Below are positions 6,312 to 47,718 of a stretch of DNA of 64,000 bases, piece by piece; the stretch's first letter is position 1; every line of letters begins with the position of its first letter. The notes beneath the pieces were generated by a model that saw nothing but the letters and a program-made list of their open reading frames with translations, searched no databases and was not told where the DNA came from. The position numbers and the translations under genes were made by a program. Origin of the DNA: Deltaproteobacteria bacterium (GTDB lineage: Bacteria > Myxococcota_A > Polyangia > Fen-1088); NCBI GenBank assembly GCA_033763315.1, contig JANRKS010000002.1, positions 64,001 through 128,000 on the forward strand. Direction: 5' to 3'.

Positions 6312-7241
6312 TTATCCCTGGTTCTGTTTTGGTTGCCTGTTTCGGCGGGCCCGCGCCCAAATCACCAAACGCTCCGCGGGCCAAAAGCCCACAAAAGCCG
6401 CGCCGGTGAGAGGGTAGGGAAAAGCCACGGCCATCAGTAGCAGAATTCCCGCATGAAACGCCACGATGGCGATGGCCCAAATCCGCAGCGTGCGCCACGA
6501 AACGAGCGCCAGCGGCGCCAACACCTCGAGTGCCAGGCTGGCGCTGGCAAGCGGCGCGAACAGCGCTGGATGAGCGAGAGCCGCTGACCCTATGCTTGAG
6601 TAAACCGCGCCAAGCTCGGCTTTGCGGACGTTGTCGAAGGCGATTTGGTTGCGAAGAAATTCTCCTGCAGCCCAATGCAAGCCATCACCTCGAAGCTTAG
6701 CCACACCGGCCATGAAGTACACGGCCACCGTGAGAATGGCCAGCGTGGCCAACGGCCACCCATAGCGTGGCGAAGCGACGGGCGTGGGGCGTGTGCGTGC
6801 ATCGATAGAGACAGCGTCGGCGGCCGGGGCGAACGCGATCACGATCGCGTGCAATGCCAGCAGATTCTCGGAGTGAAAGATCATCCCCCAACTGCAACGA
6901 TAGGTGCTTACGAAGAGAAACGCTGCCGCTGCCAGTGGCCCCGTCACGGTATGGCGCCAACCCACGGCCACAAGGAGACCGGCGGCGATGGCCACGACGT
7001 TGATTGCCACCACCAGTTCCCACGGTGGGGGTGCAACAAAAGGTGCCAGAACACCCACAGGACGAAAGGCGTCTGTTCCCAAGTTGTGCGTGCGCAGCGT
7101 GGCCGGCAGCAGGCCCACGGAAGTGGCGGCCAGGAACAACCCAATCACGATGCGCACCACCGCCAGTCGTTCCGCTGGCGCGGGAGCGAAGAACGCGTTG
7201 TCTGCGCGTTGCAACCAACCAAGCCCAAAGGTCTTCGTCAT
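6312..7241 (-). CDS. HTTM-domain membrane protein
   Basis: Multiple TM helices, PAERLAVVRI, YFMAGVAKL, FHAGILLLM. ATG 7241 overlaps the upstream stop. Confidence 0.7.
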   Translation of the reverse strand: MTKTFGLGWLQRADNAFFAPAPAERLAVVRIVIGLFLAATSVGLLPATLRTHNLGTDAFRPVGVLAPFVAPPPWELVVAINVVAIAAGLLVAVGWRHTVTGPLAAAAFLFVSTYRCSWGMIFHSENLLALHAIVIAFAPAADAVSIDARTRPTPVASPRYGWPLATLAILTVAVYFMAGVAKLRGDGLHWAAGEFLRNQIAFDNVRKAELGAVYSSIGSAALAHPALFAPLASASLALEVLAPLALVSWRTLRIWAIAIVAFHAGILLLMAVAFPYPLTGAAFVGFWPAERLVIWARARRNRQPKQNQG

Positions 7242-7687
7242 GGCGCATCCGTTTCGTGGGGCACCGGGCACCGCGCGTGCTCAACCCGTTGCAAGGGCAA
7301 GCGGCCGCCGCTGTTGCGAAAGTAAGCAACAGAGTCATAGGTGCTTGTGGCAACGCTGAGCTCGTTGACACCCATGCGCGCTTGCTTGCTGAGGTTGCGT
7401 GCAACTCGTTCGCACAGCGCGCTCGCGTTGCCAAGCGCGATGGCTCGGCCGATCGTGGCGGCCGCTTGCATCACGGCACCGTTGGCCACAAATTCAGGCG
7501 CCACAGGCTGGGCACTCCCATCGGCGGCCAGCGCCAACACGTGCACGGTTTCCATCACCCGGTCCCGCTTGTGCGTGAACATCGGGTACGACGAAATCGG
7601 AAAATCGTCGCGCCCCACCGGCCACCCCAGGGGCAGCAAAACGCCCGCGAGCAGCGAGACAAGGACACCATATGCACGCAAGCGCAT
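7238..7687 (-). CDS. Hypothetical membrane-anchored partner of the HTTM protein
   Basis: N-terminal TM followed by DDFPISSYPMF, coupled to the HTTM gene. Start re-called at MRLRAYG. Confidence 0.6.
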   Translation of the reverse strand: MRLRAYGVLVSLLAGVLLPLGWPVGRDDFPISSYPMFTHKRDRVMETVHVLALAADGSAQPVAPEFVANGAVMQAAATIGRAIALGNASALCERVARNLSKQARMGVNELSVATSTYDSVAYFRNSGGRLPLQRVEHARCPVPHETDAP

Positions 7688-7805: not shown

Positions 7806-8279
7806 TTATGACCGCGCGCCGCAGCGGACCCACAACAGCAAAAGGTCTCGCTCGCCCTCGGTGATGGCCGGGGCCTCGGGCGGCGGCATCGCGCATCTGA
7901 GCAATTCGTCACGCACGGCTGCGGCCCAGTCGGCAACGTGCTGATAATCAGTCAGGGGCCACGGGCCCATGGGGCGTCCATCATGGCAGGTCACACAACG
8001 GTTCGTGATGATCTGCGCAACCTCCGCGTATCGAGGTGCGGGCAGGGAGCAAGACGAAGGGGCTTGGACATTGCACAGCGCCGCAGACGCGTCGATGTCG
8101 CCTGCAGCGTCTAACCCAAGAGGTATTTGTGAATCGTCTGCCACCGAAGCATCAGCCTCACCGGCGTCATGAAAGGCCGCGTCGTTGTGAGCGAGGTCTG
8201 CGCTATCGGAATCGCACGCTCCGAACGCCACTGTGATGAACGCTAGCGCGCAGTGGATCGACGCTCGCAGGGCAGACAT
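7806..8279 (-). CDS. Small monoheme c-type cytochrome lipoprotein
   Basis: VAFGAC lipobox, RCVTCH, distal MPP Met ligand. Start re-called at MSALRAS. Confidence 0.65.
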   Translation of the reverse strand: MSALRASIHCALAFITVAFGACDSDSADLAHNDAAFHDAGEADASVADDSQIPLGLDAAGDIDASAALCNVQAPSSCSLPAPRYAEVAQIITNRCVTCHDGRPMGPWPLTDYQHVADWAAAVRDELLRCAMPPPEAPAITEGERDLLLLWVRCGARS

Positions 8280-8408
8280 GCTTCGCAATGTACGCAGCTT
8301 CCTTCGATGCTTCAAGCTTGCGGGGGCGGCGGTGAGGCATCTGCGACAACAAACCGCACCGCGGCTGCGAGGCCGATCCCGTACACTGGCGCACCAAAGG
8401 AGAAATTG

Positions 8409-9110
8409 ATGGGAAAAACAAGCGCTCTTCTGTTTGCCGTAAGTATCGTGGGGTTGTCAGGCGGAGCGGCCAACGCCCACGTGTCTGTCGTAGGGGGCAC
8501 AGGGTTCGCGAACCAAACACAAGAAATCAAGTTTGGGGTGGGCCATGGTTGCGCCGGCGTCGATACCTTAAGCGTTCGGGTTGAAATTCCCGCAGGCGTA
8601 ACTTCCGTGCGCGCCATAGGCAGCACATTGGGGGCCCCGACGGTTGAACTGAACGACGCGGGCGTCGTCACGGCCGTGACATGGCAAAAGCCCACCAGCG
8701 CGCTCGTGGAGGGCGATCCCAACTACTACACCGTATCGATCCGCGCGAAGTTACCTGACGCGCCGTTTTCGACCCTGTATTTCCCGACGCGGCAGATATG
8801 CAGTACACCCAGCGGCGTGAAGAGCCCCCCAGTTGACTGGAGCGCCATCGGGGAGCCGGTTGATGCAGGTGCCGACGAACCCGCGCCAAGCTTGTTGTTG
8901 CTGCCGGCTCGCAGCCCCGGATGGAACAAATACTTGGTGCCGAAACCTCTGGCCAATTTGAAGGCCGCGTTCGGCGACGCTCAGATCGTTTGGCGTGGCA
9001 CAGCCGCCTTCAGCGCCAACGCTGCCACAACTGAACTCATCAGCGCCACGTCGGGCGTCACAGCGCTAACGGCTCTTGCCGCCGGCGACATCGTGTGGGT
9101 GAGGTACTGA
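8409..9110 (+). CDS. YcnI/DUF1775-family copper-binding protein with a C-terminal extension
   Basis: Signal peptide ending ANA-HVSV (N-terminal His), FGVGHGC, LYFPTRQIC, PAPSL. AAGGAG RBS. Confidence 0.75.
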   Translation: MGKTSALLFAVSIVGLSGGAANAHVSVVGGTGFANQTQEIKFGVGHGCAGVDTLSVRVEIPAGVTSVRAIGSTLGAPTVELNDAGVVTAVTWQKPTSALVEGDPNYYTVSIRAKLPDAPFSTLYFPTRQICSTPSGVKSPPVDWSAIGEPVDAGADEPAPSLLLLPARSPGWNKYLVPKPLANLKAAFGDAQIVWRGTAAFSANAATTELISATSGVTALTALAAGDIVWVRY

Positions 9111-9391: not shown

Positions 9392-10300
9392 CTACATCAC
9401 GGCGCGCACCAGGCATTCGCCTTCACCGCGAAAGTGCCCCACTGTGCGAGCGAGGGCCGTCATGAAGTCGCCTAAAGTGGCGACTTGGAAGCCCGAAGGA
9501 TCGTAGGTGCGCACATCAAGTGGTGTGGCCATGAGCTCCGCCATCGTGATTTCGTTGTCAGCGTCGCGATCGGCGTTGGCTTTTTCTGCAAAGCGCAGCG
9601 ACGTGACGACCGCGGGGTTCGCTGAAGCGCGCAGGCGATCGTAAAAGAAATGATCGCCGTGCGTTGTTAGTTCGCTCACGTCATTGCCGCCGTTGGTCAC
9701 CACGATGCCTTCGATCTCACGTCCACTTTCGGGCGTCTGTTTGCAATCCGTGTATTGCGTCGCGGTCTTAAATCCCCAGTGAAAGGTTTTCTGCAAGGGG
9801 ATGCTTGCCTCGATTTTGGTGGCTGTGCCCTCGACATAAACCGAATAGCCGCCGGCCACCATCAGATCCTTGTCGGCTTGCGTGGCGGCGACAAGCGTCG
9901 TGTCCACCGCCACAGGACTAATTTGATAGCTCACGGCACCCCACGCTTTGGCTTTCAACCCGGCGAAGCTTGTGAGCGTTTTACGCCCGGGCCGCACGTT
10001 GTCGACCAGGAATGAACCTGTGGTTGCGCCGCCGACTGTGCCTTTGGTGTCAGCCACCTGAATGTTACGAAAGGTGACCAAGAATTTACTGTACTTGATC
10101 GTCCAGCCATCCAAGAAGCCCGACTGGCCTGTGGGATCAGGGGGGATCTGCTGTTCAATGTATTCTTCGCCCCAGGTTGTAAAGGATGCGGTGCCTTCGC
10201 CCGCGTCGCTGCATCCGAAGCATGCGACGCAACCAACGAGAGCGACGAGTAAAGCTTTAATGTGATTCATGAGTTTTGTCTCTATTTCGGCCACCTTCAC
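9392..10300 (-). CDS. Lipoprotein of unknown function in the TonB receptor operon
   Basis: CFGC lipobox, TWGEEYIE, THGDHFFYD, GHFRGEGEC. Confidence 0.7.
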   Translation of the reverse strand: MKVAEIETKLMNHIKALLVALVGCVACFGCSDAGEGTASFTTWGEEYIEQQIPPDPTGQSGFLDGWTIKYSKFLVTFRNIQVADTKGTVGGATTGSFLVDNVRPGRKTLTSFAGLKAKAWGAVSYQISPVAVDTTLVAATQADKDLMVAGGYSVYVEGTATKIEASIPLQKTFHWGFKTATQYTDCKQTPESGREIEGIVVTNGGNDVSELTTHGDHFFYDRLRASANPAVVTSLRFAEKANADRDADNEITMAELMATPLDVRTYDPSGFQVATLGDFMTALARTVGHFRGEGECLVRAVM

Positions 10301-11097
10301 GGCTCGTGGTCGGCGGTGAAGGAAAAGTGATAGGCGCTCAGTTGCACAAGCCCCAACAGGAATGCGATGTGTGCGGTGGATCCTTTTGTGATCTCGGTGG
10401 GCGCTTCGGCCGATCCCGGCGCGATGTCGGCAAAATCAACAAGGTTGAACCAAACGTGCGGCTTGATTGTCAGTTTGACGACGCCGGCTCGGTCAACAGT
10501 GGCTTCCTCGAAGCTGCACCCTGGCACCAATCCATCACGAGCGTGCTCCCCAATCGTGGCAAAGTCGACGGCGATACGGAAATGCACGGTGCTTTCGCCC
10601 TTGGTGGCGACGCCCGTGGCCGTCACGGTGTTGCCCTTAAGGTTCGTCAGCGCTGCGCCATCGACGGGGGACGAGAAAGAAAACGTTGCCGATCGATAGA
10701 GTCCCGTGACGCCGTTGCCCGCCGGAAATGCGATAGGGCCAGCAATTAGATTTAACGAATACTCCTTCAACATTTGCCCTTTGGCCACACCCTCGCCGTA
10801 ATGTCCGGGGTGAGCGTGTGCAGGCGGCAACAGCACGCGCTTAAGCCTCTGCCATGGGGTTCGCGCTTGTTGCATAACGAACGCGGGCGAACCATCGAAG
10901 TAATAGAACGGCCCCGTGGCCATTGCCGCTTCAGCTAGCTCGACATTCCAGCCTGAAAGTGTGGTGAAACGTGTATGCACCTCGCGTGCGGGCTCCACTT
11001 GCGTGCGAAGGATGATGCGCTTGCCGGTGGTGCCGTCACTGCAAGCGATTCCAGCTAGGGCCAGAATGAACGTTAAGATCGCGCACTGCTTTTGCAT
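10297..11097 (-). CDS. Lipoprotein of unknown function with a His motif, in the TonB receptor operon
   Basis: AGIAC lipobox, AHAHPGHY, overlaps the next gene. Confidence 0.7.
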   Translation of the reverse strand: MQKQCAILTFILALAGIACSDGTTGKRIILRTQVEPAREVHTRFTTLSGWNVELAEAAMATGPFYYFDGSPAFVMQQARTPWQRLKRVLLPPAHAHPGHYGEGVAKGQMLKEYSLNLIAGPIAFPAGNGVTGLYRSATFSFSSPVDGAALTNLKGNTVTATGVATKGESTVHFRIAVDFATIGEHARDGLVPGCSFEEATVDRAGVVKLTIKPHVWFNLVDFADIAPGSAEAPTEITKGSTAHIAFLLGLVQLSAYHFSFTADHEP

Positions 11098-11105
11098 ATT
11101 CCGTC

Positions 11106-13145
11106 CTAAAGAAAAAGGCTAACCTCGAATAACATAGCCCTTGGATTGCCCACGGTGACGAAGCGTTCGGGAACCACACTGGCCGCGCCGTTTTGTTGCC
11201 ACCGCGCCGCGAACGCAAACTCACCATCATACCAATCGCGGTTCAACACATTCCACACAGACATTCCCGCACCGATGGCGCGGTAGCGCACCCGCAACGC
11301 CGAATCGACCAAAAAAATGCTGTGCCCCCACTCTCGGTAGGGCAACGGTCGCCCCATCAACAAAGACAAGCCCGTGCCGAACTCGGCGCGCAACGCATGG
11401 GCGCGCACGGTGATGTCCCGCCTGAACAACACATCCGCGCGCGCCACCCATTGCGGCACGTAGGGCAAAAGATCGCCCTTGCTGAACTGGGCGTCGCTGC
11501 GGGTGAAACTCGCGCGCGTGAATGTTCCGCTGGCGGTGGCCAGCAACCAATCAAGGTGCTGCCACGTGAGATCCAATGCCATCCCCTGACGCTGTGATGC
11601 GGGGACGGTTTCGTTGCGGGTGGTGCGGGGATCGAATACCAAATCTTCTGACAGGCGCGTGACGAAGCCCGCCACCGAAGCGTTGCCCCAAGCCCCGTTC
11701 GCTCGCACCCCCAGCTCGCCACTGCGCACACGCGCAAACGGCGTGGCCTCGCCGTCTGCCAAACTGCGTGCCTGAGGCGAGCGAAACCCTTCGCCGTAGC
11801 TGAGCAGAATATGGCCATCGGTCCACGCACGAAAGTCGATGGTTGCCTTTGGGCCCGCAGATAAACCCTGCGCTGAGCGCGATTGACCTGCAGCGCGGGC
11901 GCCGCGATCGGTGGCGGTGAATCCCAAGGCATTGAGCCGCACGCCGCCTCGCAACGTGAGTCGTGGGGAAGGATGGAGGGCGGCATCCAGATACGCTGCG
12001 AGGGTGTTCGCACGCACCACGGCCTGCACATCATCACCGGTCACGCGGCCGTCGATCGATGAGAGGCGCTTCTGCGATTGTGTGATCCAATCAGACCGTG
12101 CAACCAGTCCCAGCTCGATGGTGTCTTGCGGGGCCAATAGGTGAACACGTTTGCGAAAATACGCGTGGCTGCCGGCGGTGACGGCGTCGTTGATTTGTTG
12201 CTGTGCATCGCCATTGGGATCGGTCAAGAACCCTGTGAAATTTTGGCGCAGACGCATGCCGTGCGTCACCACGTACGCGGACAAACCCGAACGTTGGCCC
12301 GGCCTATCTTCACCAAGTTCAACCAAGGCCTGCGAGCGTGACGAAGCGCCGCCTTGCGAGGGGTCGTATGTGGCGAAACGATCGACGGCACCGCTTCGGA
12401 CATCCGAAAGCGCAAGCACACCAGCCGACGAAAACCGTGCGGCGTAGGATGAGATCAGCACGCGCAGCTTCAGGCCATCGGGCAGCGCCCAGACCGCTTG
12501 CGATAGCGCCGAGGCCCGTTCCGCCGCGCGGGCGGGACCAAAACCATCCGTGTGATAGTGCTCGAACGCCGCGAACGTCTCGTCCTGGGTGTCGGGTGGG
12601 TGATAGGCAATGAATTGGCGCTGCGTTCCGAACGATCCTAAGGCCGCCTTCGCGGTGACGCCCGGTTCCGCGTATCCCAAGCGAAGATGCAGCGACCCGG
12701 CCACGGCAAAATCGCCTTGCCGCGGATCGTATGCGCCCGCTTGTGCGCGAACCTGTTGCACAACCTCGGCAGGAATGAAATTCAGATCCGCATAACCTTG
12801 ACCGTGGATGTTCGAAACATCGTTGACGGGGATGCCGCCGGCCACAACCTCAATGTCCTGGCCATGGATCGCGTCAAAGCCACGAAAGAACATTTGCGAG
12901 GCTTTGCCTTCGCCGCCGTGATGGGTCACGAACATCCCCGGCACCACCATCAACAGATCGTCAGCGGTTTTGTGGGGCGCGGTGCGGAGCGCTTCCCGAT
13001 CGCGCACGCTTTGTGAAGCGCTACGCGGCGGGGCGGGCGCCACAACAGTCACGTCGTAAGGTGAAGGCGTCGATTGTGCGAAAAATAGAACCCAAATGAA
13101 CAGAGGCATTGTGCAAACTCCCGAACGCGCGCTCTCGAAAGGCAC
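11106..13145 (-). CDS. TonB-dependent receptor (putative divalent-metal uptake)
   Basis: Plug motifs VPGMFVTHHGGEGKASQMFFRGFDAIHGQD and HGQGYADLNFIP, beta-barrel, C-terminal GNPRAMLFEVSLFL. Start may be ATG 13109. Confidence 0.85.
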   Translation of the reverse strand: MPFESARSGVCTMPLFIWVLFFAQSTPSPYDVTVVAPAPPRSASQSVRDREALRTAPHKTADDLLMVVPGMFVTHHGGEGKASQMFFRGFDAIHGQDIEVVAGGIPVNDVSNIHGQGYADLNFIPAEVVQQVRAQAGAYDPRQGDFAVAGSLHLRLGYAEPGVTAKAALGSFGTQRQFIAYHPPDTQDETFAAFEHYHTDGFGPARAAERASALSQAVWALPDGLKLRVLISSYAARFSSAGVLALSDVRSGAVDRFATYDPSQGGASSRSQALVELGEDRPGQRSGLSAYVVTHGMRLRQNFTGFLTDPNGDAQQQINDAVTAGSHAYFRKRVHLLAPQDTIELGLVARSDWITQSQKRLSSIDGRVTGDDVQAVVRANTLAAYLDAALHPSPRLTLRGGVRLNALGFTATDRGARAAGQSRSAQGLSAGPKATIDFRAWTDGHILLSYGEGFRSPQARSLADGEATPFARVRSGELGVRANGAWGNASVAGFVTRLSEDLVFDPRTTRNETVPASQRQGMALDLTWQHLDWLLATASGTFTRASFTRSDAQFSKGDLLPYVPQWVARADVLFRRDITVRAHALRAEFGTGLSLLMGRPLPYREWGHSIFLVDSALRVRYRAIGAGMSVWNVLNRDWYDGEFAFAARWQQNGAASVVPERFVTVGNPRAMLFEVSLFL

Positions 13146-13222
13146 GCCAATGCGCGCGCTCGCCGCTCATGCACGTGGGTGCGTGAACAGGCTGGCGGCA
13201 CCAGCGGCCGTTGGTGCGATTG

Positions 13223-13759
13223 CTACGCGAGTGCGGGCGGGCCACGAATGTGCGGCGGGATTGTGTGCGGGTGGCCGTACCGCTCGAAGCGAACGGCTTC
13301 GTCGAGCACATGCAACCGTAGAAGAGCGGGCACGGGATGTAGGCTGGGTGTGCATCCGTGAAACAGCAGCCCGAAGTGCAGCAGCGAGCCGTCGCCTTGC
13401 GCGAGTGGTTCGGTGGGCGAGGGCGTTCCGGATCGACAGGTGGCGCTGCTGCTAAAGCGGGCGGCCGCCAATGCCGTGTCGTTGTCCCCGGATCCGAAAG
13501 CGGCCCCGCGCACTTCGTCGAGCACCTCTTGCAACGACGATGGGCGCTCTTCGGCTTGCACCCTGCCATCCAGAAACAACACGCCGTTGGCGGTGTGGAT
13601 GTGGTCGGCCCAGTGGTTGTAGATGTGAGCGGCTGGCGCCACCAAGGTGCCAACGACAAAACAGAGCAGCGCGGCCCACCCCGCGCTCAAGCGACGCCAC
13701 GACCTCATCGGGCGACAACGCCGCCGCTGTTGAGTCTTTTCGGAGGTGACGTGAGCCAT
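13223..13759 (-). CDS. His-rich leader protein ending in RGPP (DUF2946/CruR-like architecture)
   Basis: Hydrophobic helix, then AHIYNHWADHIH, LLHFGLLFHG, GHPHTIPPHIRGPPALA-stop. Start is 13759 or 13708. Confidence 0.6.
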   Translation of the reverse strand: MAHVTSEKTQQRRRCRPMRSWRRLSAGWAALLCFVVGTLVAPAAHIYNHWADHIHTANGVLFLDGRVQAEERPSSLQEVLDEVRGAAFGSGDNDTALAAARFSSSATCRSGTPSPTEPLAQGDGSLLHFGLLFHGCTPSLHPVPALLRLHVLDEAVRFERYGHPHTIPPHIRGPPALA

Positions 13760-13849
13760 GGCCACGAAGCCCGGACGTTGACAGAAAGTGGCTGCGGGCG
13801 CCAGGCCACGGTCCGAGACATCCGCGCGTTGGGGACGTTTCGCGCGTTG

Positions 13850-13866
13850 TCGCATTTGAATTGCAA
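13850..13866. promoter_or_regulatory. Imperfect 17-bp palindrome, candidate Zur/Fur-family operator
   Basis: TCGCATTTGAATTGCAA matches 12 of 14 positions of TTGCAAT-N3-ATTGCAA. It lies between the two divergent TonB receptor operons. Confidence 0.4.
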
Positions 13867-14040
13867 TAACGGTACAGGTGCAATATCTTCGCTGGCCATG
13901 CTTCCGGGTTCATTCACTTACTCCACCCGTCCGCTTTTCCGGCGGCGGGGGGGGGCTCGCCTCGGGGCACCCAGGCGTGCCACTTTCGCAGGCCGCCCTT
14001 CACTTTGGGCGTGGTGAACCTGCTATTGGAATCAGAAGCC

Positions 14041-16473
14041 ATGGGGAAGCCATTCACATCAACCCTGTACCGAGCCGCAGCGACCGGCGCTTTGGTCATG
14101 GTTTGCACCCCCGCGGTGGCGCAATCCGCGGCGTCACCGGCGGTCTTGGCGAACCACTGTGCGGCCACGCTTGATGTGCACATCATTGAAGCGTTCGACC
14201 ACGAGCCTGTGTCGGCCGCCAACATTACGGTCAACCACACGTTTGCGGGCAGCACCGATGAACACGGCCGCTTGAAAGTGGAGGGACTTTGCGCGGGCAA
14301 GGTGATGGTTGAGGCGGCCCACGATGCGTTCGAGCCAGGCGCCCGTCTCATCACACTTGGGCCTTCAGGTTCCGTTGAGATCGAACTCAAGTTCAAGGTG
14401 GAAGAATACGCCGTTGAGACGAAAGTCACGCGCACGGTCGACATGCGATCCACGGCCACAATCTCCGATGAGGCGCTCGAGCGAAAACGCGGCCAATCAC
14501 TTGCAGAAGCGTTGGCAGATGTCCCGGGCGTAAGCCAGCTGCGCTCAGGAAACGGCCTGGCCAAGCCCATTGTGCGCGGCCAGTTTGGGCGGCGTTTACC
14601 GATCATCGTTGATGGCGTGCGACACCGCGCGCAGGATTGGGGCCTAGACCATGCGCCTGAAATCGATCCGGCGATCGCCGATCGCATCAGCGTCGTGCGC
14701 GGCGCATCGGGTGTGCGCTATGGGCCCGATGCCATCGGTGGCGTTCTGCTTGTGGATCCTCCCGACATGCGCCGCAGCCCCGGTGTCGAAGGGCAAACCC
14801 ACCTCGTCGGGTTCTCCAATGGGTGGGGCGGCGACTTATCGACCCGCGTGCAAGCGGTGCCCGCGTCGCTGCCCGCGCTGACGTTGCAGCTTGAGGGCAG
14901 CCTCAAACGGCAAGCGGCTGCGCGCACGCCGGATTATGCGTTGGACAACACGGGCCAGGAGCAGTGGACGGCGGGTGCCACGCTCGCCTACCGCGCCAGC
15001 GAGGCTGTGTATCAATTGTCATTCCGGCACCTGGCCGCTGAACTTGGCGTCTGCCTTTGTTACCGGATCGATTCGCCCAGTGACTTCATGGCGCAGATCC
15101 AGCGCGGCAAGCCATCTGGTTTTGAGCTTTACCGCGCCGATGCGAACATCGAACGCCCTTATCAAGCGCTGGCACACGATCTGGCCGTGGCGCGCGCCCG
15201 ATGGACGCTGGGCAATGTGGGCACGCTCACTGGCACATATGCGTTTCAATACGATCACCGCCGCGAATACGCCCTTGTCCGCCAGGCCGTTTCGGGATCG
15301 CAATTCGCGTTTCGGTTGTGGACGCACGACATTGATCTGACGCTCGAACACACGCCCGTTCATCTTTCCGATCACCACCATCTGATCGGCTCGATCGGCG
15401 TGGTGGGCATGGCGCAAGTTCACTCTTACGACGGTTTGCCGTTGGTGCCTGATCATAAAGCTGGCAGCGCGGGTGTGTTTGCTGCCGAACGTTTGATCGC
15501 GGACGAGTATGAGCTGGAAGCGGGCGTTCGCTACGATTTCCTCGCGCGCACGGCGGCCTTGGACCGAGATGATTTTTTGCGGCTTGTGCGCAGTGGTCAG
15601 CTTCTCAACGATGCTTGCGGCGGGGTGACGGACGCGACGGCGAAAATAAATTGCTCCTCCACGTTCCACACAGTGTCGGCGTCGCTCGGCGCTCTCCGCC
15701 GTTTCACGACCGAATGGTCGAGCAAACTGGATCTCTCTGTGGCGTCGCGGCCACCCAACCCCGATGAACAATACCTCAACGGCACCGCGCCTTCGTTTCC
15801 CGTGTTCGGCCTCGGGCGACCCAACCTCGGCGCCGAAACGACCTACTCGGCCTCCATAACCGCCACATACAGCTCGGCAAAGCTTGCGGGCGAGGCCTCT
15901 GCCTTTGGCAACTACATCGCCGACTACATTTATTTTGCCCCCGCCATCGGGGCCGACGGTATGCCGATCTTCGACGTGCTCATTCGCGGCGCGTTCCCGC
16001 GCTTCGTCACGCGGCCCGTGGATGCGGTGTTTTATGGTGCCGACGGTGGGCTCACAGCGGTGCCGCTGCCGTGGCTTGAGATTGGGGCGCAGGCGTCCCT
16101 CATCCGCGCGCGGAACGTCACTGATCACTCGTATTTGGTGTTCGTGCCTTCAAACAACGTGCGTTCGTCGATCACAGTGAAACGCGCCCAAGTTTGGGGC
16201 ATGAGCAACGTGATGGCATCGGTGGCCGGCTCATACACCGCTCGTCAATCTCGCTTCGACCTGGCTGCCGACCTGGCGCCACCGCCCGAGGCGTATTTTG
16301 TTTTGGGTGGAACGATTGCGGCCGAAAAACGCGTGGGCAATCAAGTGATCAAGTTTGCTTTGCAAGGCGCGAACGTGCTGGGTCGTCGCTATCGTGAGTA
16401 TACAAGCCTGATGCGCTACTTCGCCGATCAGCCGGGGCGTCAGGTGATGCTGCGGGTGTCATTGTTGTTTTGA
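14041..16473 (+). CDS. TonB-dependent receptor with an N-terminal carboxypeptidase-regulatory-like domain
   Basis: Signal peptide, SLAEALADVPGV, KPIVRG, QDWGLDHAPEID, YGPDAIGGV, C-terminal Phe. Confidence 0.9.
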   Translation: MGKPFTSTLYRAAATGALVMVCTPAVAQSAASPAVLANHCAATLDVHIIEAFDHEPVSAANITVNHTFAGSTDEHGRLKVEGLCAGKVMVEAAHDAFEPGARLITLGPSGSVEIELKFKVEEYAVETKVTRTVDMRSTATISDEALERKRGQSLAEALADVPGVSQLRSGNGLAKPIVRGQFGRRLPIIVDGVRHRAQDWGLDHAPEIDPAIADRISVVRGASGVRYGPDAIGGVLLVDPPDMRRSPGVEGQTHLVGFSNGWGGDLSTRVQAVPASLPALTLQLEGSLKRQAAARTPDYALDNTGQEQWTAGATLAYRASEAVYQLSFRHLAAELGVCLCYRIDSPSDFMAQIQRGKPSGFELYRADANIERPYQALAHDLAVARARWTLGNVGTLTGTYAFQYDHRREYALVRQAVSGSQFAFRLWTHDIDLTLEHTPVHLSDHHHLIGSIGVVGMAQVHSYDGLPLVPDHKAGSAGVFAAERLIADEYELEAGVRYDFLARTAALDRDDFLRLVRSGQLLNDACGGVTDATAKINCSSTFHTVSASLGALRRFTTEWSSKLDLSVASRPPNPDEQYLNGTAPSFPVFGLGRPNLGAETTYSASITATYSSAKLAGEASAFGNYIADYIYFAPAIGADGMPIFDVLIRGAFPRFVTRPVDAVFYGADGGLTAVPLPWLEIGAQASLIRARNVTDHSYLVFVPSNNVRSSITVKRAQVWGMSNVMASVAGSYTARQSRFDLAADLAPPPEAYFVLGGTIAAEKRVGNQVIKFALQGANVLGRRYREYTSLMRYFADQPGRQVMLRVSLLF

Positions 16474-16499
16474 GAAACCTTAACCAAGTGGAGATTCTT

Positions 16500-17117
16500 A
16501 TGCGCAATTTGGGTCGATACATCAGTGGTCTAGTTTGGTTCTGTGTGGTTGCCATCGTTCCTGGTTGTGGTGGCGACGAGGTCGGCAATATCAATGAGCC
16601 TGAGGTCATCACCACGATCACTTTGACGGCCACACCCACGGGCGGCGGCGCCTCCATCGTGGCTGGTGTTGACGATCCCGACGGCGATGGTGGCAACCCT
16701 CCCATCGTCACGCCCCTGGTGCTTTCTCCTGGCACGTATGACATGACGATCAATCTGCAAAGCAAGCTTTCCACGCCACCGGCGGACATCACTCAAGAAG
16801 TGCGTGACGAGGGCATCACCCATCAGCTTTTCTTTACAGGTCCGGCGGTGAATGGCCCTGCCAGTGCACAGCCTGCGGCACCGCTCGGCCAGGCTTACGC
16901 GGATGCCGACAGCAATGGCCTGCCGGTGGGCCTGGCCAACAAGATCACGGCATCCGCTGGCGCAGGCTTGTTAACCATAACGCTGCGGCATATGCCTGCA
17001 GTGAATGGCGTCGCTGTAAAAACCGCGGCCCTTGCCGAAACCGTGAGAACGATGGGCTTTTCAGGCATCGGCGGCTCCACCGATCTGCAGGTCAACCTGC
17101 CGGTGACAGTGCAGTAG
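16500..17117 (+). CDS. TonB receptor-associated lipoprotein
   Basis: IVPGC lipobox, NEPEVITT, DPDGDGG, HQLFF, ITLRH. Confidence 0.75.
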   Translation: MRNLGRYISGLVWFCVVAIVPGCGGDEVGNINEPEVITTITLTATPTGGGASIVAGVDDPDGDGGNPPIVTPLVLSPGTYDMTINLQSKLSTPPADITQEVRDEGITHQLFFTGPAVNGPASAQPAAPLGQAYADADSNGLPVGLANKITASAGAGLLTITLRHMPAVNGVAVKTAALAETVRTMGFSGIGGSTDLQVNLPVTVQ

Positions 17118-46615: not shown

Positions 46616-47686
46616 TTAGACTTTGCGCGCTTCTAGCTTTTGACGTTCGCCTTCAAGCTCGAGCGAGAACGATTTGGCTTCTGAGCCCACCTTTGCTGAC
46701 AAAGCGGCCAGCGGCAAGGCCGCGCGGGTCACGCCGAAATCCAGCACGGTTTGCGGCATATGGGGCGCCACACAATCGGCAGGCTCTTGCACAAATACGG
46801 CCCCGCCCGCGCCCGCAATGGCTGCCGCACCCAGGGCGCCATCGCGGCCAAGCCCCGTCAGCAAGACGCCAATGGTGAACCGACCGCAAGCCACGACCAA
46901 GCTTTTAAACAACGGATCGGCCGCTGGTTTAACGTAGTTTTCGGGCGCTGTGTCGAGCAGCCGAATGCGCCCTGTTTGTGAATCCAAAACCATATGGCGT
47001 TCGCCTGGCGCGACGAAAACGTGGCCCGCCCGCGCCACGACACCCGACGTGGCCAATTCCACCGGCAGCGCAGATCGTTCCCGCAAGCGCTTGACCAGAT
47101 CCTCCATCATCCAAGCCGGTCCGTGTTGCACGACGAAAACGCAGGTTTCGGGTCCCGGCGTTAGGGCTGAGAGAAACGCGCCTAAGGCGGCGGGGCCACC
47201 TGTGCTGGCAGCCACCCCCAGCGCCACGAAGGGAGGCACACCCGTGTGTTTGACGGGACATAGGTCGGCGGACGAAGGGGAGGGCTGGGCGCGCCTCGCC
47301 AACGCTGCGCGCACCACCTGCGCCACCACGGCGGGTTCCGAAGGTTTACCGAGAAAATCATCGGCACCGGAGGCGAGCGCGTGGCTGCGAGCTTCCTGGC
47401 TGGCCAGTGCCGTCAACATGATTACCGCAGGCCTGTGTGGCACCTCGGCCCGCAAGCGGCGGCACAGCTCAATGCCATCCATCTCGGGCATCAACCAATC
47501 TGTCACGAGCGCGCCAAATTCCACTTGCTTGAGCAGGGCCAGAGCGGTCTCACCGTTGTCGGCGCGACGAACGTCGAAACCAGCGTGCGCCAATGCGACC
47601 TCCAATAGACGACCCGACACCGGATCGTCTTCGGCGATCAGCACCCGCGAAGAAGCTTCGGACACGACTGTTTCATCGACAGCCAA
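46616..47686 (-). CDS. cheB: REC-CheB methylesterase (second copy)
   Basis: AASTGGP, VQHG, LTGLGRDG catalytic triad, N-terminal receiver domain. Confidence 0.85.
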   Translation of the reverse strand: MAVDETVVSEASSRVLIAEDDPVSGRLLEVALAHAGFDVRRADNGETALALLKQVEFGALVTDWLMPEMDGIELCRRLRAEVPHRPAVIMLTALASQEARSHALASGADDFLGKPSEPAVVAQVVRAALARRAQPSPSSADLCPVKHTGVPPFVALGVAASTGGPAALGAFLSALTPGPETCVFVVQHGPAWMMEDLVKRLRERSALPVELATSGVVARAGHVFVAPGERHMVLDSQTGRIRLLDTAPENYVKPAADPLFKSLVVACGRFTIGVLLTGLGRDGALGAAAIAGAGGAVFVQEPADCVAPHMPQTVLDFGVTRAALPLAALSAKVGSEAKSFSLELEGERQKLEARKV

Positions 47687-47718
47687 AGGCCGTTCTTTAG
47701 ATACCGCCCTTGTTGCCG

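What the first reader, a model, noticed from the sequence alone, without database searches (positions are those of the whole stretch)
13110..13759. His-rich leader ORF ending in RGPP upstream of a TonB receptor: candidate metal-sensing ribosome-arrest regulator
Seen: a small ORF with an N-terminal hydrophobic helix, His clusters (HIYNHWADHIH, HFGLLFHG, GHPH..PH) and a terminal IRGPPALA. It ends about 80-115 nt before the co-directional TonB receptor gene. Known: DUF2946-type leaders (CruR, CutF) combine an export signal, a CxxC copper site and a C-terminal Pro-rich (RAPP-like) motif to control downstream metal genes, and RAPP/RGPP motifs act as arrest peptides. Inference: this is a variant without CxxC that uses His ligands, so it may sense Zn/Ni/Co rather than Cu. 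The last major His cluster lies about 45 aa before the prolines, roughly just outside the exit tunnel.
Basis: partly seen in the sequence, partly recalled or inferred. Interest (0 to 1): 0.78.

Follow-up and report, generated by a model that had tools for sequence, protein, structure and literature searches.

The report
His-rich RGPP stalling leader before TonB receptor
A small membrane-anchored, histidine-rich gene ending in the ribosome-stalling motif Arg-Gly-Pro-Pro sits just before an outer-membrane importer gene in a myxobacterium, and it most likely acts as a metal-sensing translational switch of a kind already described for copper in other bacteria.

Summary
On the minus strand, 13223-13708 (or from 13759) encodes a 161-aa protein with an N-terminal hydrophobic helix, His clusters and ...HIRGPPALA-stop. 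It lies 77 or 113 nt before a TonB-dependent receptor (TBDR).

The ORF belongs to a family with no Pfam hit above threshold, found across Myxococcota (48 of 401 class genomes, 25 of 401 phylum genomes). In 44 aligned members, P25, H28, H32, H111, R155, P157 and P158 are invariant. The C-terminal motif is RGPP (34), RAPP (9) or RPPP (1), 1-14 residues before the stop.

H111 to R155 is always 43-45 residues, although that linker is only 16% identical. The other inter-motif distance varies from 24 to 101 residues. The RGPP codons vary synonymously. RGPP is about 3.5-fold depleted in this genome. A homologous TBDR follows in 26 of 27 loci.

Best reading (0.7): a Cys-free, CruR/CutF-like arrest-peptide metal sensor that controls the receptor. 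It fails the DUF2946 tests: no CxxC, and the Pfam model PF11162 scores below threshold.

The metal is unresolved. Context (a DUF1775/YcnI gene and two MbnP-like lipoproteins) leans towards copper rather than Zn/Ni/Co.

The class is already published (Roy 2022; Ozturk 2023; Fujiwara 2025), and this scan has found it before in other genomes. I rate it a new variant of a known kind.

The parts
13223..13708 (-). Leader ORF, 161 codons plus the TAG stop. An alternative start at ATG 13759 adds 17 residues.
   Evidence: P0002 is identical, 161 aa. The coding score is positive only in this frame.
13628..13681 (-). Hydrophobic N-terminal helix (residues about 10-27), preceded by Arg residues. It is probably an uncleaved signal anchor with the N terminus inside the cell.
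   Evidence: Sequence. The AlphaFold2 helix 2-32 has block pLDDT 88-96. No consistent small-x-small cleavage site appears in alignment A3. No signal-peptide predictor was run.
13595..13636 (-). First His motif, P25-x2-H28-x3-H32-x3-H36-x-H38, directly after the helix.
   Evidence: P25, H28 and H32 are invariant; H36 and H38 are at least 90% conserved in 44 sequences. Mean pairwise identity of residues 25-42 is 0.47.
13373..13399 (-). Second His motif, H/Q104-G-x-G-S-x-x-H111-F112.
   Evidence: H111 is invariant; H104, G105 and G107 are at least 90% conserved. Mean pairwise identity is 0.65.
13247..13372 (-). Linker of fixed length and variable sequence (residues 113-154), rich in Ala, Pro and Leu.
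   Evidence: The H111-to-R155 distance is 44 (25 sequences), 43 (10) or 45 (9) of 44. Mean pairwise identity is 0.16.
13235..13246 (-). RGPP, the presumed arrest motif (R155 G156 P157 P158; codons CGT GGC CCG CCC).
   Evidence: R, P and P are invariant in 44 sequences; position 2 is G in 34, A in 9 and P in 1. Codons vary synonymously across 23 loci. RGPP is depleted to 0.29 of expectation in this genome.
13110..13222 (-). Intergenic region, with GGGAG (13118-13122) 8 nt before ATG 13109.
   Evidence: In the predicted free RNA, C13123-G13120 pair with G13234-C13237 (the second Pro codon plus one base) with probability about 0.9. The fold as a whole is no stronger than shuffles (z -0.25).
11106..13109 (-). 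TonB-dependent receptor, the presumed regulated gene (an alternative start is GTG 13145).
   Evidence: Pfam Plug and barrel domains. Homologues follow the leader in 26 of 27 loci and in 20 of 20 extended loci.
10297..11097 (-). Lipoprotein of 266 aa, MbnP-like (a lead only).
   Evidence: No Pfam or NCBIfam hit. Atlas structure search gives TM 0.53-0.60 to MbnP clusters. It is present after the receptor in 4 of 20 other extended loci by blastp.
9392..10300 (-). Second lipoprotein, 302 aa, with the same lead.
   Evidence: No Pfam hit. Atlas feature score is 0.90 to an MbnP cluster. It occurs with the 266-aa gene in the same 4 loci.

Best explanation
The ORF encodes a regulatory leader protein that works like CruR and CutF.

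Shown by sequence: it has an N-terminal signal-anchor helix, two conserved His motifs, and a 42-44-residue linker of free sequence but fixed length. It ends in R-G-P-P a few codons before the stop and directly precedes a TonB-dependent receptor gene.

Inferred mechanism:
1. The ribosome stalls with the first Pro codon in the P site and the second in the A site, as shown for RAPP/RGPP arrest peptides.
2. While it stalls, receptor expression is kept on. Either the stalled ribosome holds the second Pro codon away from the receptor's GGG Shine-Dalgarno bases (SecM/CutF type; I give this about 55%), or it blocks Rho (CruR type; about 45%).
3. At that moment the second His motif is about 46 residues from the peptidyl-transferase centre. 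That places it just past the exit tunnel, or at the outer end of the translocon, next to the membrane-proximal first His motif.
4. Metal bound between the two motifs folds or pulls the chain, releases the stall and turns the importer down when metal is plentiful. This is the CruR logic.

The metal is not established. The gene context leans towards copper.
For: - Family: 5 representatives at E<=1e-3 among 1.84 billion proteins; 21 proteins with the profile; 48 of 401 genomes of the class; 25 of 401 of the phylum sample, 9 of them outside the class.
- Conservation: in 44 aligned sequences, 20-55% identical to the window protein, P25, H28, H32, H111, R155, P157 and P158 are invariant.
- Motif: RGPP 34, RAPP 9, RPPP 1. 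It lies 1-14 residues before the stop, most often 3.
- Ruler: H111-to-R155 is 43-45 residues in 44 of 44, while H38-to-H111 ranges 24-101. The linker is 0.16 identical, against 0.65 for the His motif. In 11 further loci the distance is 43-46.
- Selection acts on the peptide, not the RNA: the R, G/A, P and P codons vary synonymously in 23 loci.
- RGPP is avoided in this genome: 12 observed against 41.5 expected, while permutations of the same residues score 0.65-1.42. It ranks 40th lowest of 30,426 tetrapeptides.
- Linkage: a homologous receptor follows in 26 of 27 loci, in 20 of 20 extended loci and in 10 of 11 further loci. Intergenic gaps are 39-182 nt.
- RNA: across 23 loci the SD/start window pairs with the segment a stalled ribosome would cover at 0.37, against 0.17 in shuffles (Wilcoxon p 0.002; the loci are related). 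In the window the pairing probability is about 0.9.
- Literature: RAPP and RGPP give robust, EF-P-refractory arrest. They are enriched near the C termini of small exported proteins upstream of TonB receptors, YcnI, PCu(A)C and PepSY genes (PMC12992588, sections 12, 13 and 24 and passages read). CruR has RAPP 3 residues from its end, a fixed CXXC-RAPP spacing and a downstream receptor (PMC9426467, passages read).
Against: - No experiment on this family exists, and stalling cannot be computed.
- The window protein has no PF11162 hit even at E<=10. hhalign against 5 DUF2946 members gives 10.5% probability over 32 columns. Descent from DUF2946 is therefore unproven.
- The intergenic fold is no more stable than shuffles (z -0.25).
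- When the stalled-ribosome segment is blocked, predicted SD accessibility hardly rises: 0.047 against 0.015 in shuffles, p 0.09. In the window the SD simply re-pairs elsewhere.
- Pro-Pro codons are complementary to GGAGG-type SD sequences by their nature, so part of the pairing signal is trivial.
- At 110-210 aa the proteins are long for leaders, and they could also have a function as finished proteins.
- The AlphaFold2 model is confident only for the helix (mean pLDDT 69.9, pTM 0.37), so a two-motif metal site is not shown.
- One locus (L074) has no receptor within 1.5 kb.
- The direction of the response (metal releases the stall or causes it) is inferred only from the fact that the target is an importer.
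Confidence: 0.7

Rival explanations
1. The protein is an ordinary, stable, membrane-anchored periplasmic metal-binding protein, such as a chaperone or accessory of the receptor. Its conserved C-terminal RGPP would then be a structural or interaction motif rather than an arrest signal.
For: Members are 110-209 aa long and have two conserved His motifs. Some secondary structure beyond the helix is predicted. The only invariable partner is the receptor.
Against: RGPP is among the most avoided tetrapeptides in this genome and across bacteria (PMC12992588, section 12 read). The 42 residues before it are free in sequence but fixed in length, which is unusual for a folded interaction domain. The residues after PP vary in number (1-14) and kind.
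Confidence: 0.12
2. It is an arrest peptide but not a metal sensor. The stall would be relieved by membrane insertion or translocation force alone (a SecM/MifM-type monitor), or would simply act as a constant translational throttle on the receptor.
For: It has an N-terminal signal anchor and a moderately hydrophobic stretch right after the second His motif. Known RAPP-type peptides monitor the Sec and YidC pathways (PMC12992588 and PMC10987492; abstracts and passages read).
Against: Five or six His positions are invariant or nearly so across 44 diverse sequences, and many members carry extra His/Asp repeats. The downstream gene is a metal-type importer context, not a secretion factor.
Confidence: 0.13
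3. The ORF is a chance open frame in GC-rich DNA, and the motifs are coincidental.
For: Many long spurious ORFs overlap this region. My crude gene caller did not keep the ORF when it used the longest start.
Against: The coding score is positive only in this frame. Homologues conserve the motifs at the amino-acid level in dozens of genomes, with synonymous codon variation.
Confidence: 0.01

Closest known systems
CruR (Bp2923) of Bordetella pertussis, prototype of Pfam DUF2946/PF11162 (PMC9426467)
   Same: Both are the first gene before a TonB-dependent transporter. Both have an N-terminal export signal, an R-x-P-P motif three residues before the stop, and a metal motif at a fixed distance from it (45 intervening residues in CruR, 42-44 here). 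The proposed logic, in which metal relieves the stall and the importer is turned off, is borrowed from CruR.
   Different: There is no CxxC (0 of 44), and His motifs take its place. The motif is RGPP in most members rather than RAPP. PF11162 scores below threshold or not at all. The taxon is Myxococcota; the passages I read list CruR homologues in proteobacteria plus a few Planctomycetes, Firmicutes and Deinococcus. Intergenic gaps are often shorter (39-182 nt against 162 nt). Rho dependence is unknown.
CutF of Rhodobacter capsulatus and CutF-like proteins (PMC9973294; bioRxiv 10.1101/2025.02.05.636593)
   Same: Both are exported nascent-chain sensors with a C-terminal Pro motif whose stall is proposed to open RNA structure over the next gene's ribosome-binding site. 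His-only CutF-like clusters (SSN clusters 14 and 17) have been reported.
   Different: CutF uses CxxxC and PPP, depends on EF-P, and switches on a detoxifying oxidase when copper is present. The reported His-only clusters sit next to HupE/UreJ genes, not TonB receptors. I could not see their HMM logos because supplements are closed.
RAPP/RGPP arrest peptides surveyed by Fujiwara et al. 2025 (PMC12992588), including ApdA, ApdP and the seven Streptomyces lividans peptides
   Same: All carry RGPP or RAPP near the C terminus of a small (<300 aa) membrane or secreted protein upstream of a regulated gene. The motif is depleted proteome-wide. TonB-dependent receptors are named there as an enriched downstream class in Gram-negative bacteria.
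   Different: That survey is based on the motif alone and does not describe this family, its His motifs or its ruler in the text I read. [quoted passage not shown]

Membership tests
DUF2946 / CruR (PF11162) | Match to the PF11162 profile above the gathering score (23.7 bits) | tested here: not met
   The window protein has no hit at E<=1 or E<=10. Of 44 family members, 12 have hits at E<=10, the best at E 0.0016. Among the 10 members scanned one by one, 4 matched PF11162, at 7.9-12.2 bits; L006 and L016 aligned end to end.
DUF2946 / CruR (PF11162) | Conserved CXXC (or CxxxC) metal motif | tested here: not met
   0 of 44 sequences contain C..C or C...C. Mean Cys content is 1%, against 8.8% for His.
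DUF2946 / CruR (PF11162) | C-terminal RAPP-type motif a few residues before the stop | tested here: met
   RGPP 34, RAPP 9 and RPPP 1 of 44. The tail is 1-14 residues and is 3 in the window protein.
DUF2946 / CruR (PF11162) | Fixed spacing between the metal motif and RAPP (45 intervening residues, within 1-2) | tested here: inconclusive
   A fixed spacing exists but involves a different motif and a different value: H111-to-R is 43-45. The second Cys-to-R distance is 45-48 in 5 DUF2946 members of the phylum and 46 in CruR (PMC9426467).
DUF2946 / CruR (PF11162) | Detectable homology by profile-profile comparison | tested here: inconclusive
   hhalign of A3 against A4 (only 5 sequences) gives probability 10.5%, E 0.003, over 32 columns covering the helix and first His motif.
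DUF2946 / CruR (PF11162) | First gene of an operon with a TonB-dependent transporter or other metal genes | tested here: met
   A receptor follows in 26 of 27 loci and in 20 of 20 extended loci. Co-transcription was not tested.
RAPP-like arrest peptides (Chiba laboratory class) | RAPP or RGPP near the C terminus of a small membrane or secreted protein upstream of a co-directional gene | tested here: met
   The hydrophobic helix is supported by sequence and by the AlphaFold2 model. No dedicated topology predictor was available.
RAPP-like arrest peptides (Chiba laboratory class) | The motif is otherwise avoided in the organism's proteome | tested here: met
   RGPP scores 0.29 and RAPP 0.37 of expectation in a crude set of 5,303 ORFs from the window's genome.
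RAPP-like arrest peptides (Chiba laboratory class) | Demonstrated ribosome stalling (peptidyl-tRNA, toeprint) | not testable with these tools
   This needs in vitro translation or in vivo reporters.

The most novel reading that the evidence does not exclude
This is an independently evolved, cysteine-free sensor and not a diverged DUF2946. The 44-residue ruler would equal the length of the ribosome tunnel plus the SecYEG channel. On this reading, the second His motif emerges on the periplasmic side exactly when the ribosome reaches RGPP, beside the first His motif held at the membrane surface by the signal anchor. Periplasmic metal would then clamp the two motifs together and pull the nascent chain out of arrest. 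That would be a co-translational, transmembrane 'His clamp' reporting periplasmic metal (Cu(II), or Zn/Ni) directly to the translating ribosome that controls the importer.
Probability: 0.2. Interest if true: 0.7.

Novelty: new variant of a known kind. Interest (0 to 1): 0.42.

Why it matters
Metal control of gene expression through a stalling nascent chain has so far been shown only for two copper systems, CruR and CutF, both of which use cysteines.

A well-defined family that replaces the cysteines with histidines, while keeping the stall motif and a strict length ruler, offers a clean natural comparison. It could address two questions: what the ruler measures (tunnel only, or tunnel plus translocon), and whether the principle extends to other ligand chemistries or other metals.

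It also gives an annotation rule for a Pfam-less gene found next to a distinct subfamily of TonB receptors across Myxococcota.

The value is incremental. The general class of RGPP/RAPP leaders before TonB receptors is already in print, and this scan has met it in several other phyla.

Tried and rejected
- Whole intergenic fold of the window: no more stable than shuffles (z -0.25).
- Terminator and promoter scan: 0 promoter-like sites, and the 2 terminator-like sites lie inside the leader's 5' part.
- C-over-G bias as a sign of a Rho loading site: the intergenic regions (C 0.36, G 0.31) are no more skewed than the coding parts.
- Shared operator upstream of the leaders: no 8-10-mer is enriched over shuffles in 25 upstream regions. 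No inverted repeat was found in 13700-14010.
- The search for related loci on all species genomes failed twice because the alignments lack a stretch conserved enough to search with. I used a phylum-level genome search instead.
- AlphaFold2 of the leader is confident only for the helix, so no fold search was run.
- AlphaFold2 of the 266-aa lipoprotein with 4 sequences was poor (pLDDT 48.6), so no fold search was run. The profile of the same 4-sequence alignment (A5) found nothing meaningful in the PDB (best E 0.42). The MbnP likeness therefore rests on the Atlas alone.
- Sequencing runs: no RNA holder is listed, and the DNA holders carry only small shares.
- My first proteome filter (GC3 >= 0.8) was wrong for a 60.6% GC genome and was discarded.
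- Genes after the receptor: only the receptor is conserved. The two lipoproteins follow in 4 of 20 other loci by blastp, and the ORF calling there is crude.
Full report
**Observation.** The feature lies on the minus strand. The open frame runs 13223..13855. From ATG 13708 it gives the 161-aa protein that the public protein collection also holds (P0002); ATG 13759 is an alternative start.
- a hydrophobic N-terminal segment preceded by arginines
- HIYNHWADHIH
- HFGLLFHG
- GHPHTIPPH
- ...HIRGPPALA followed by TAG

The next gene on the same strand has Plug and TonB-receptor barrel domains. It starts 77 nt (GTG 13145) or 113 nt (ATG 13109, with GGGAG 8 nt upstream) after the stop. The leader frame has a positive codon-usage score (+0.116 per codon), while the four overlapping alternative ORFs score -0.03 to -0.18.

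**A real family.** Neither Pfam nor NCBIfam recognises the protein. An exhaustive HMMER search of 1.84 billion representatives found 5 relatives. A profile search found 21 proteins, none with a Pfam domain on record. One is named only as a hypothetical protein of a Polyangia bacterium.

Six-frame searches of genomes found the family in:
- 4 of 61 close relatives
- 48 of 401 genomes of the class
- 25 of 401 genomes sampled across the phylum, 9 of them outside the class

I aligned 28 genomic copies and 16 database proteins as A3 (44 rows, 20-55% identical to the window protein). A few rows are near-duplicates (L013/L028, L031/L033, L007/P0008). One row, L019, comes from a genome flagged unpublished, G338; no claim depends on it. 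Invariant positions are P25, H28, H32, H111, R155, P157 and P158. H36, H38, H104, G105 and G107 are at least 90% conserved.

**The stall motif and the ruler.**
- The C-terminal motif is RGPP in 34, RAPP in 9 and RPPP in 1 of 44. It lies 1-14 residues before the stop, most often 3.
- The distance from H111 to R155 is 44 (25 sequences), 43 (10) or 45 (9).
- By contrast, the distance between the two His motifs (H38 to H111) ranges from 24 to 101.
- The fixed-length linker is no better conserved in sequence (mean pairwise identity 0.16, second half 0.12) than the indel-rich middle (0.17). The second His motif scores 0.65 and the first 0.47.
- Eleven further loci from the phylum search give 43-46 (L068 is the same place as L027).
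- The Arg, Gly/Ala and Pro codons differ synonymously among 23 loci, so selection acts on the peptide.
- In a crude ORF set of the window's own genome (5,303 ORFs, 85% of the bases), RGPP occurs 12 times against 41.5 expected (0.29) and RAPP 22 against 59.9 (0.37). Permutations of R, G, P, P score 0.65-1.42. RGPP ranks 40th lowest of 30,426 tetrapeptides with at least 20 expected. Several of the 12 occurrences lie in doubtful N-terminal extensions.

**Linkage.**
- A co-directional ORF homologous to the window's receptor follows the leader in 25 of 27 loci by phmmer. L032 was added by tblastn, giving 26 of 27.
- The remaining locus, L017, has only about 600 nt before its contig ends.
- In 20 of 20 loci extended by 10 kb, the receptor is the next gene.
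- In the 11 extra loci it follows in 10; L074 has none within 1.5 kb.
- Gaps to the most likely receptor start are 39-182 nt.
- Nothing else is conserved. The two lipoprotein genes that follow in the window recur in 4 of 20 other loci.

**Which metal.**
- The leader is 8.8% His and 1% Cys on average. Many members carry His/Asp repeats, which gave weak hits to the His-rich loops of ZIP and CbtB.
- The context points elsewhere. A DUF1775/YcnI gene lies at 8253-9110 (E 1.2e-13).
- The 266-aa and 302-aa lipoproteins have MbnP clusters as their nearest named look-alikes (Atlas structure TM 0.53-0.60; feature scores 0.88 and 0.90). These are leads only. My own model was too poor to check them, and the PDB sequence search was empty.
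- TonB transporters, YcnI and MbnPH-like genes are the partners listed for copper-type cruR operons (PMC9426467, passage read). YcnI and TonB receptors are enriched after RGPP/RAPP ORFs (PMC12992588, section 13 read).
- I therefore regard copper as somewhat more likely than Zn/Ni/Co, but the question is open.

**Relation to DUF2946.**
- The window protein has no PF11162 hit even at E<=10. Twelve of 44 relatives have hits at E<=10 (best E 0.0016). In the 10 members scanned one by one, 4 matched at 7.9-12.2 bits (cut-off 23.7), two of them end to end.
- The window's genome has no DUF2946 above cut-off. In the phylum, 9 of 301 genomes do.
- Five of the phylum's DUF2946 ORFs have the classical CxxC and RAPP, with second-Cys-to-Arg distances of 45-48.
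- hhalign of the two alignments gives 10.5% probability over the helix and first His motif only.
- The architecture is parallel, but homology is not shown. Convergence on the same design is possible.

**RNA.**
- The window's intergenic fold is not exceptional (z -0.25).
- In the predicted ensemble, C13123-G13120 of the receptor's ribosome-binding site pair with the second Pro codon plus one base (13234-13237) at about 0.9 probability.
- Over 23 loci, the SD/start window pairs with the segment a stalled ribosome would cover at 0.37, against 0.17 in dinucleotide shuffles (p 0.002; the loci are related, and CCN CCN is by nature complementary to GGAGG).
- Blocking that segment changes predicted SD accessibility little (0.047 against 0.015, p 0.09). 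In the window the SD re-pairs elsewhere.
- This hints at SecM/CutF-type unmasking but does not establish it. Rho-type control as in CruR remains possible, although it is less comfortable for gaps of 39-55 nt.

**Mechanism proposed.** All of the following is inference.
1. The positive-inside rule puts the N terminus in the cytoplasm and both His motifs outside.
2. The ribosome stalls at R-G-P with Pro-tRNA in the A site. This is the site established for RAPP-type peptides (PMC12992588, section 7 passage).
3. H111 is then 46 residues from the catalytic centre, roughly the length of the tunnel plus the translocon.
4. While the stall lasts, the receptor message stays translatable, or is protected from Rho.
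5. Metal bound by the two His motifs folds or pulls the chain, ends the stall and lowers importer synthesis.
6. The opposite sign (metal induces the stall, as in CutF) cannot be excluded.

**Novelty.**
- The principle is known: CruR (PMC9426467) and CutF (PMC9973294, passages read; bioRxiv 10.1101/2025.02.05.636593, introduction and discussion read).
- His-only CutF-like clusters are reported, next to HupE/UreJ genes (PMC9973294, passage read).
- Fujiwara et al. 2025 report that RGPP/RAPP small ORFs are enriched upstream of TonB receptors throughout Gram-negative bacteria (PMC12992588).
- In that paper's text, a term search found 'Myxococc' once, in the legend of Figure EV2, which plots the under-representation of RGPP, RAPP and RAGP by phylum. 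A term search of PMC9973294 found none.
- My two searches on the topic ('DUF2946' with 'arrest'; 'RGPP' with 'arrest peptide') returned no paper on such a family.
- The supplements of these papers, which I could not open, may list it.
- Earlier notes of this scan describe the same kind of leader in Bacteroidota and Acidobacteria, among other genomes, including a His-rich Cys-free one.
- I therefore file it as a new variant of a known kind, of moderate interest.

Noticed in passing
L080:650-1207 (+), i.e. G000 contig C36 about 47149-47706: A second small ORF in the same genome has a hydrophobic segment and ends in RGPP two residues before its stop. It is followed by an HlyD_D23 (CusB-type) gene and an ACR_tran RND pump gene. 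This is the commonest context reported for CutF-like leaders.
   Followed up: partly
L079:663-1349 (+), i.e. G000 contig C11 129162-129848: A third ORF (229 aa, with a signal-like N terminus) ends in RGPP one residue before its stop. It lies upstream of a 1061-aa DUF4215 Cys-rich repeat protein.
   Followed up: partly
window 8253-9110 (+): A DUF1775/YcnI-family gene (E 1.2e-13). Its likely signal peptide is followed directly by a His. From memory, an N-terminal His is the copper ligand in YcnI; this was not tested here. No RGPP ORF precedes the gene.
   Followed up: partly
window 9392-11097 (-): Two consecutive lipoproteins (266 and 302 aa) have no Pfam family. Their nearest named Atlas look-alikes are MbnP copper-binding proteins. 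No MbnH-like peroxidase gene was seen beside them.
   Followed up: partly
window 14005-17117 (+); L058 (G342): A second TonB receptor (822 aa, with a CarboxypepD_reg-like N-terminal part) and a 215-aa lipoprotein are transcribed divergently from the leader. In G342 their homologues (56% and 55% identity) lie directly downstream of the leader-receptor pair, so the two units seem to be functionally linked.
   Followed up: partly
L003, L004 and other loci: By eye, several leader-associated receptors are longer (up to about 946 aa) and begin with a segment that looks like a TonB C-terminal domain. The whole receptor group shares an unusual His/Asp-rich plug motif. Neither point was tested with a profile.
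   Followed up: no
L011, L023, L030: A sub-clade of the leader family carries an insert with two conserved cysteines between the two His motifs. The ruler and the C-terminal R[G/A]PP (RGPP in two, RAPP in one) are unchanged.
   Followed up: no
window 7806-8315 (-) and 6312-7271 (-): A 169-aa lipoprotein with a CxxCH haem-binding motif and an HTTM-domain membrane protein lie next to the YcnI-like gene.
   Followed up: no
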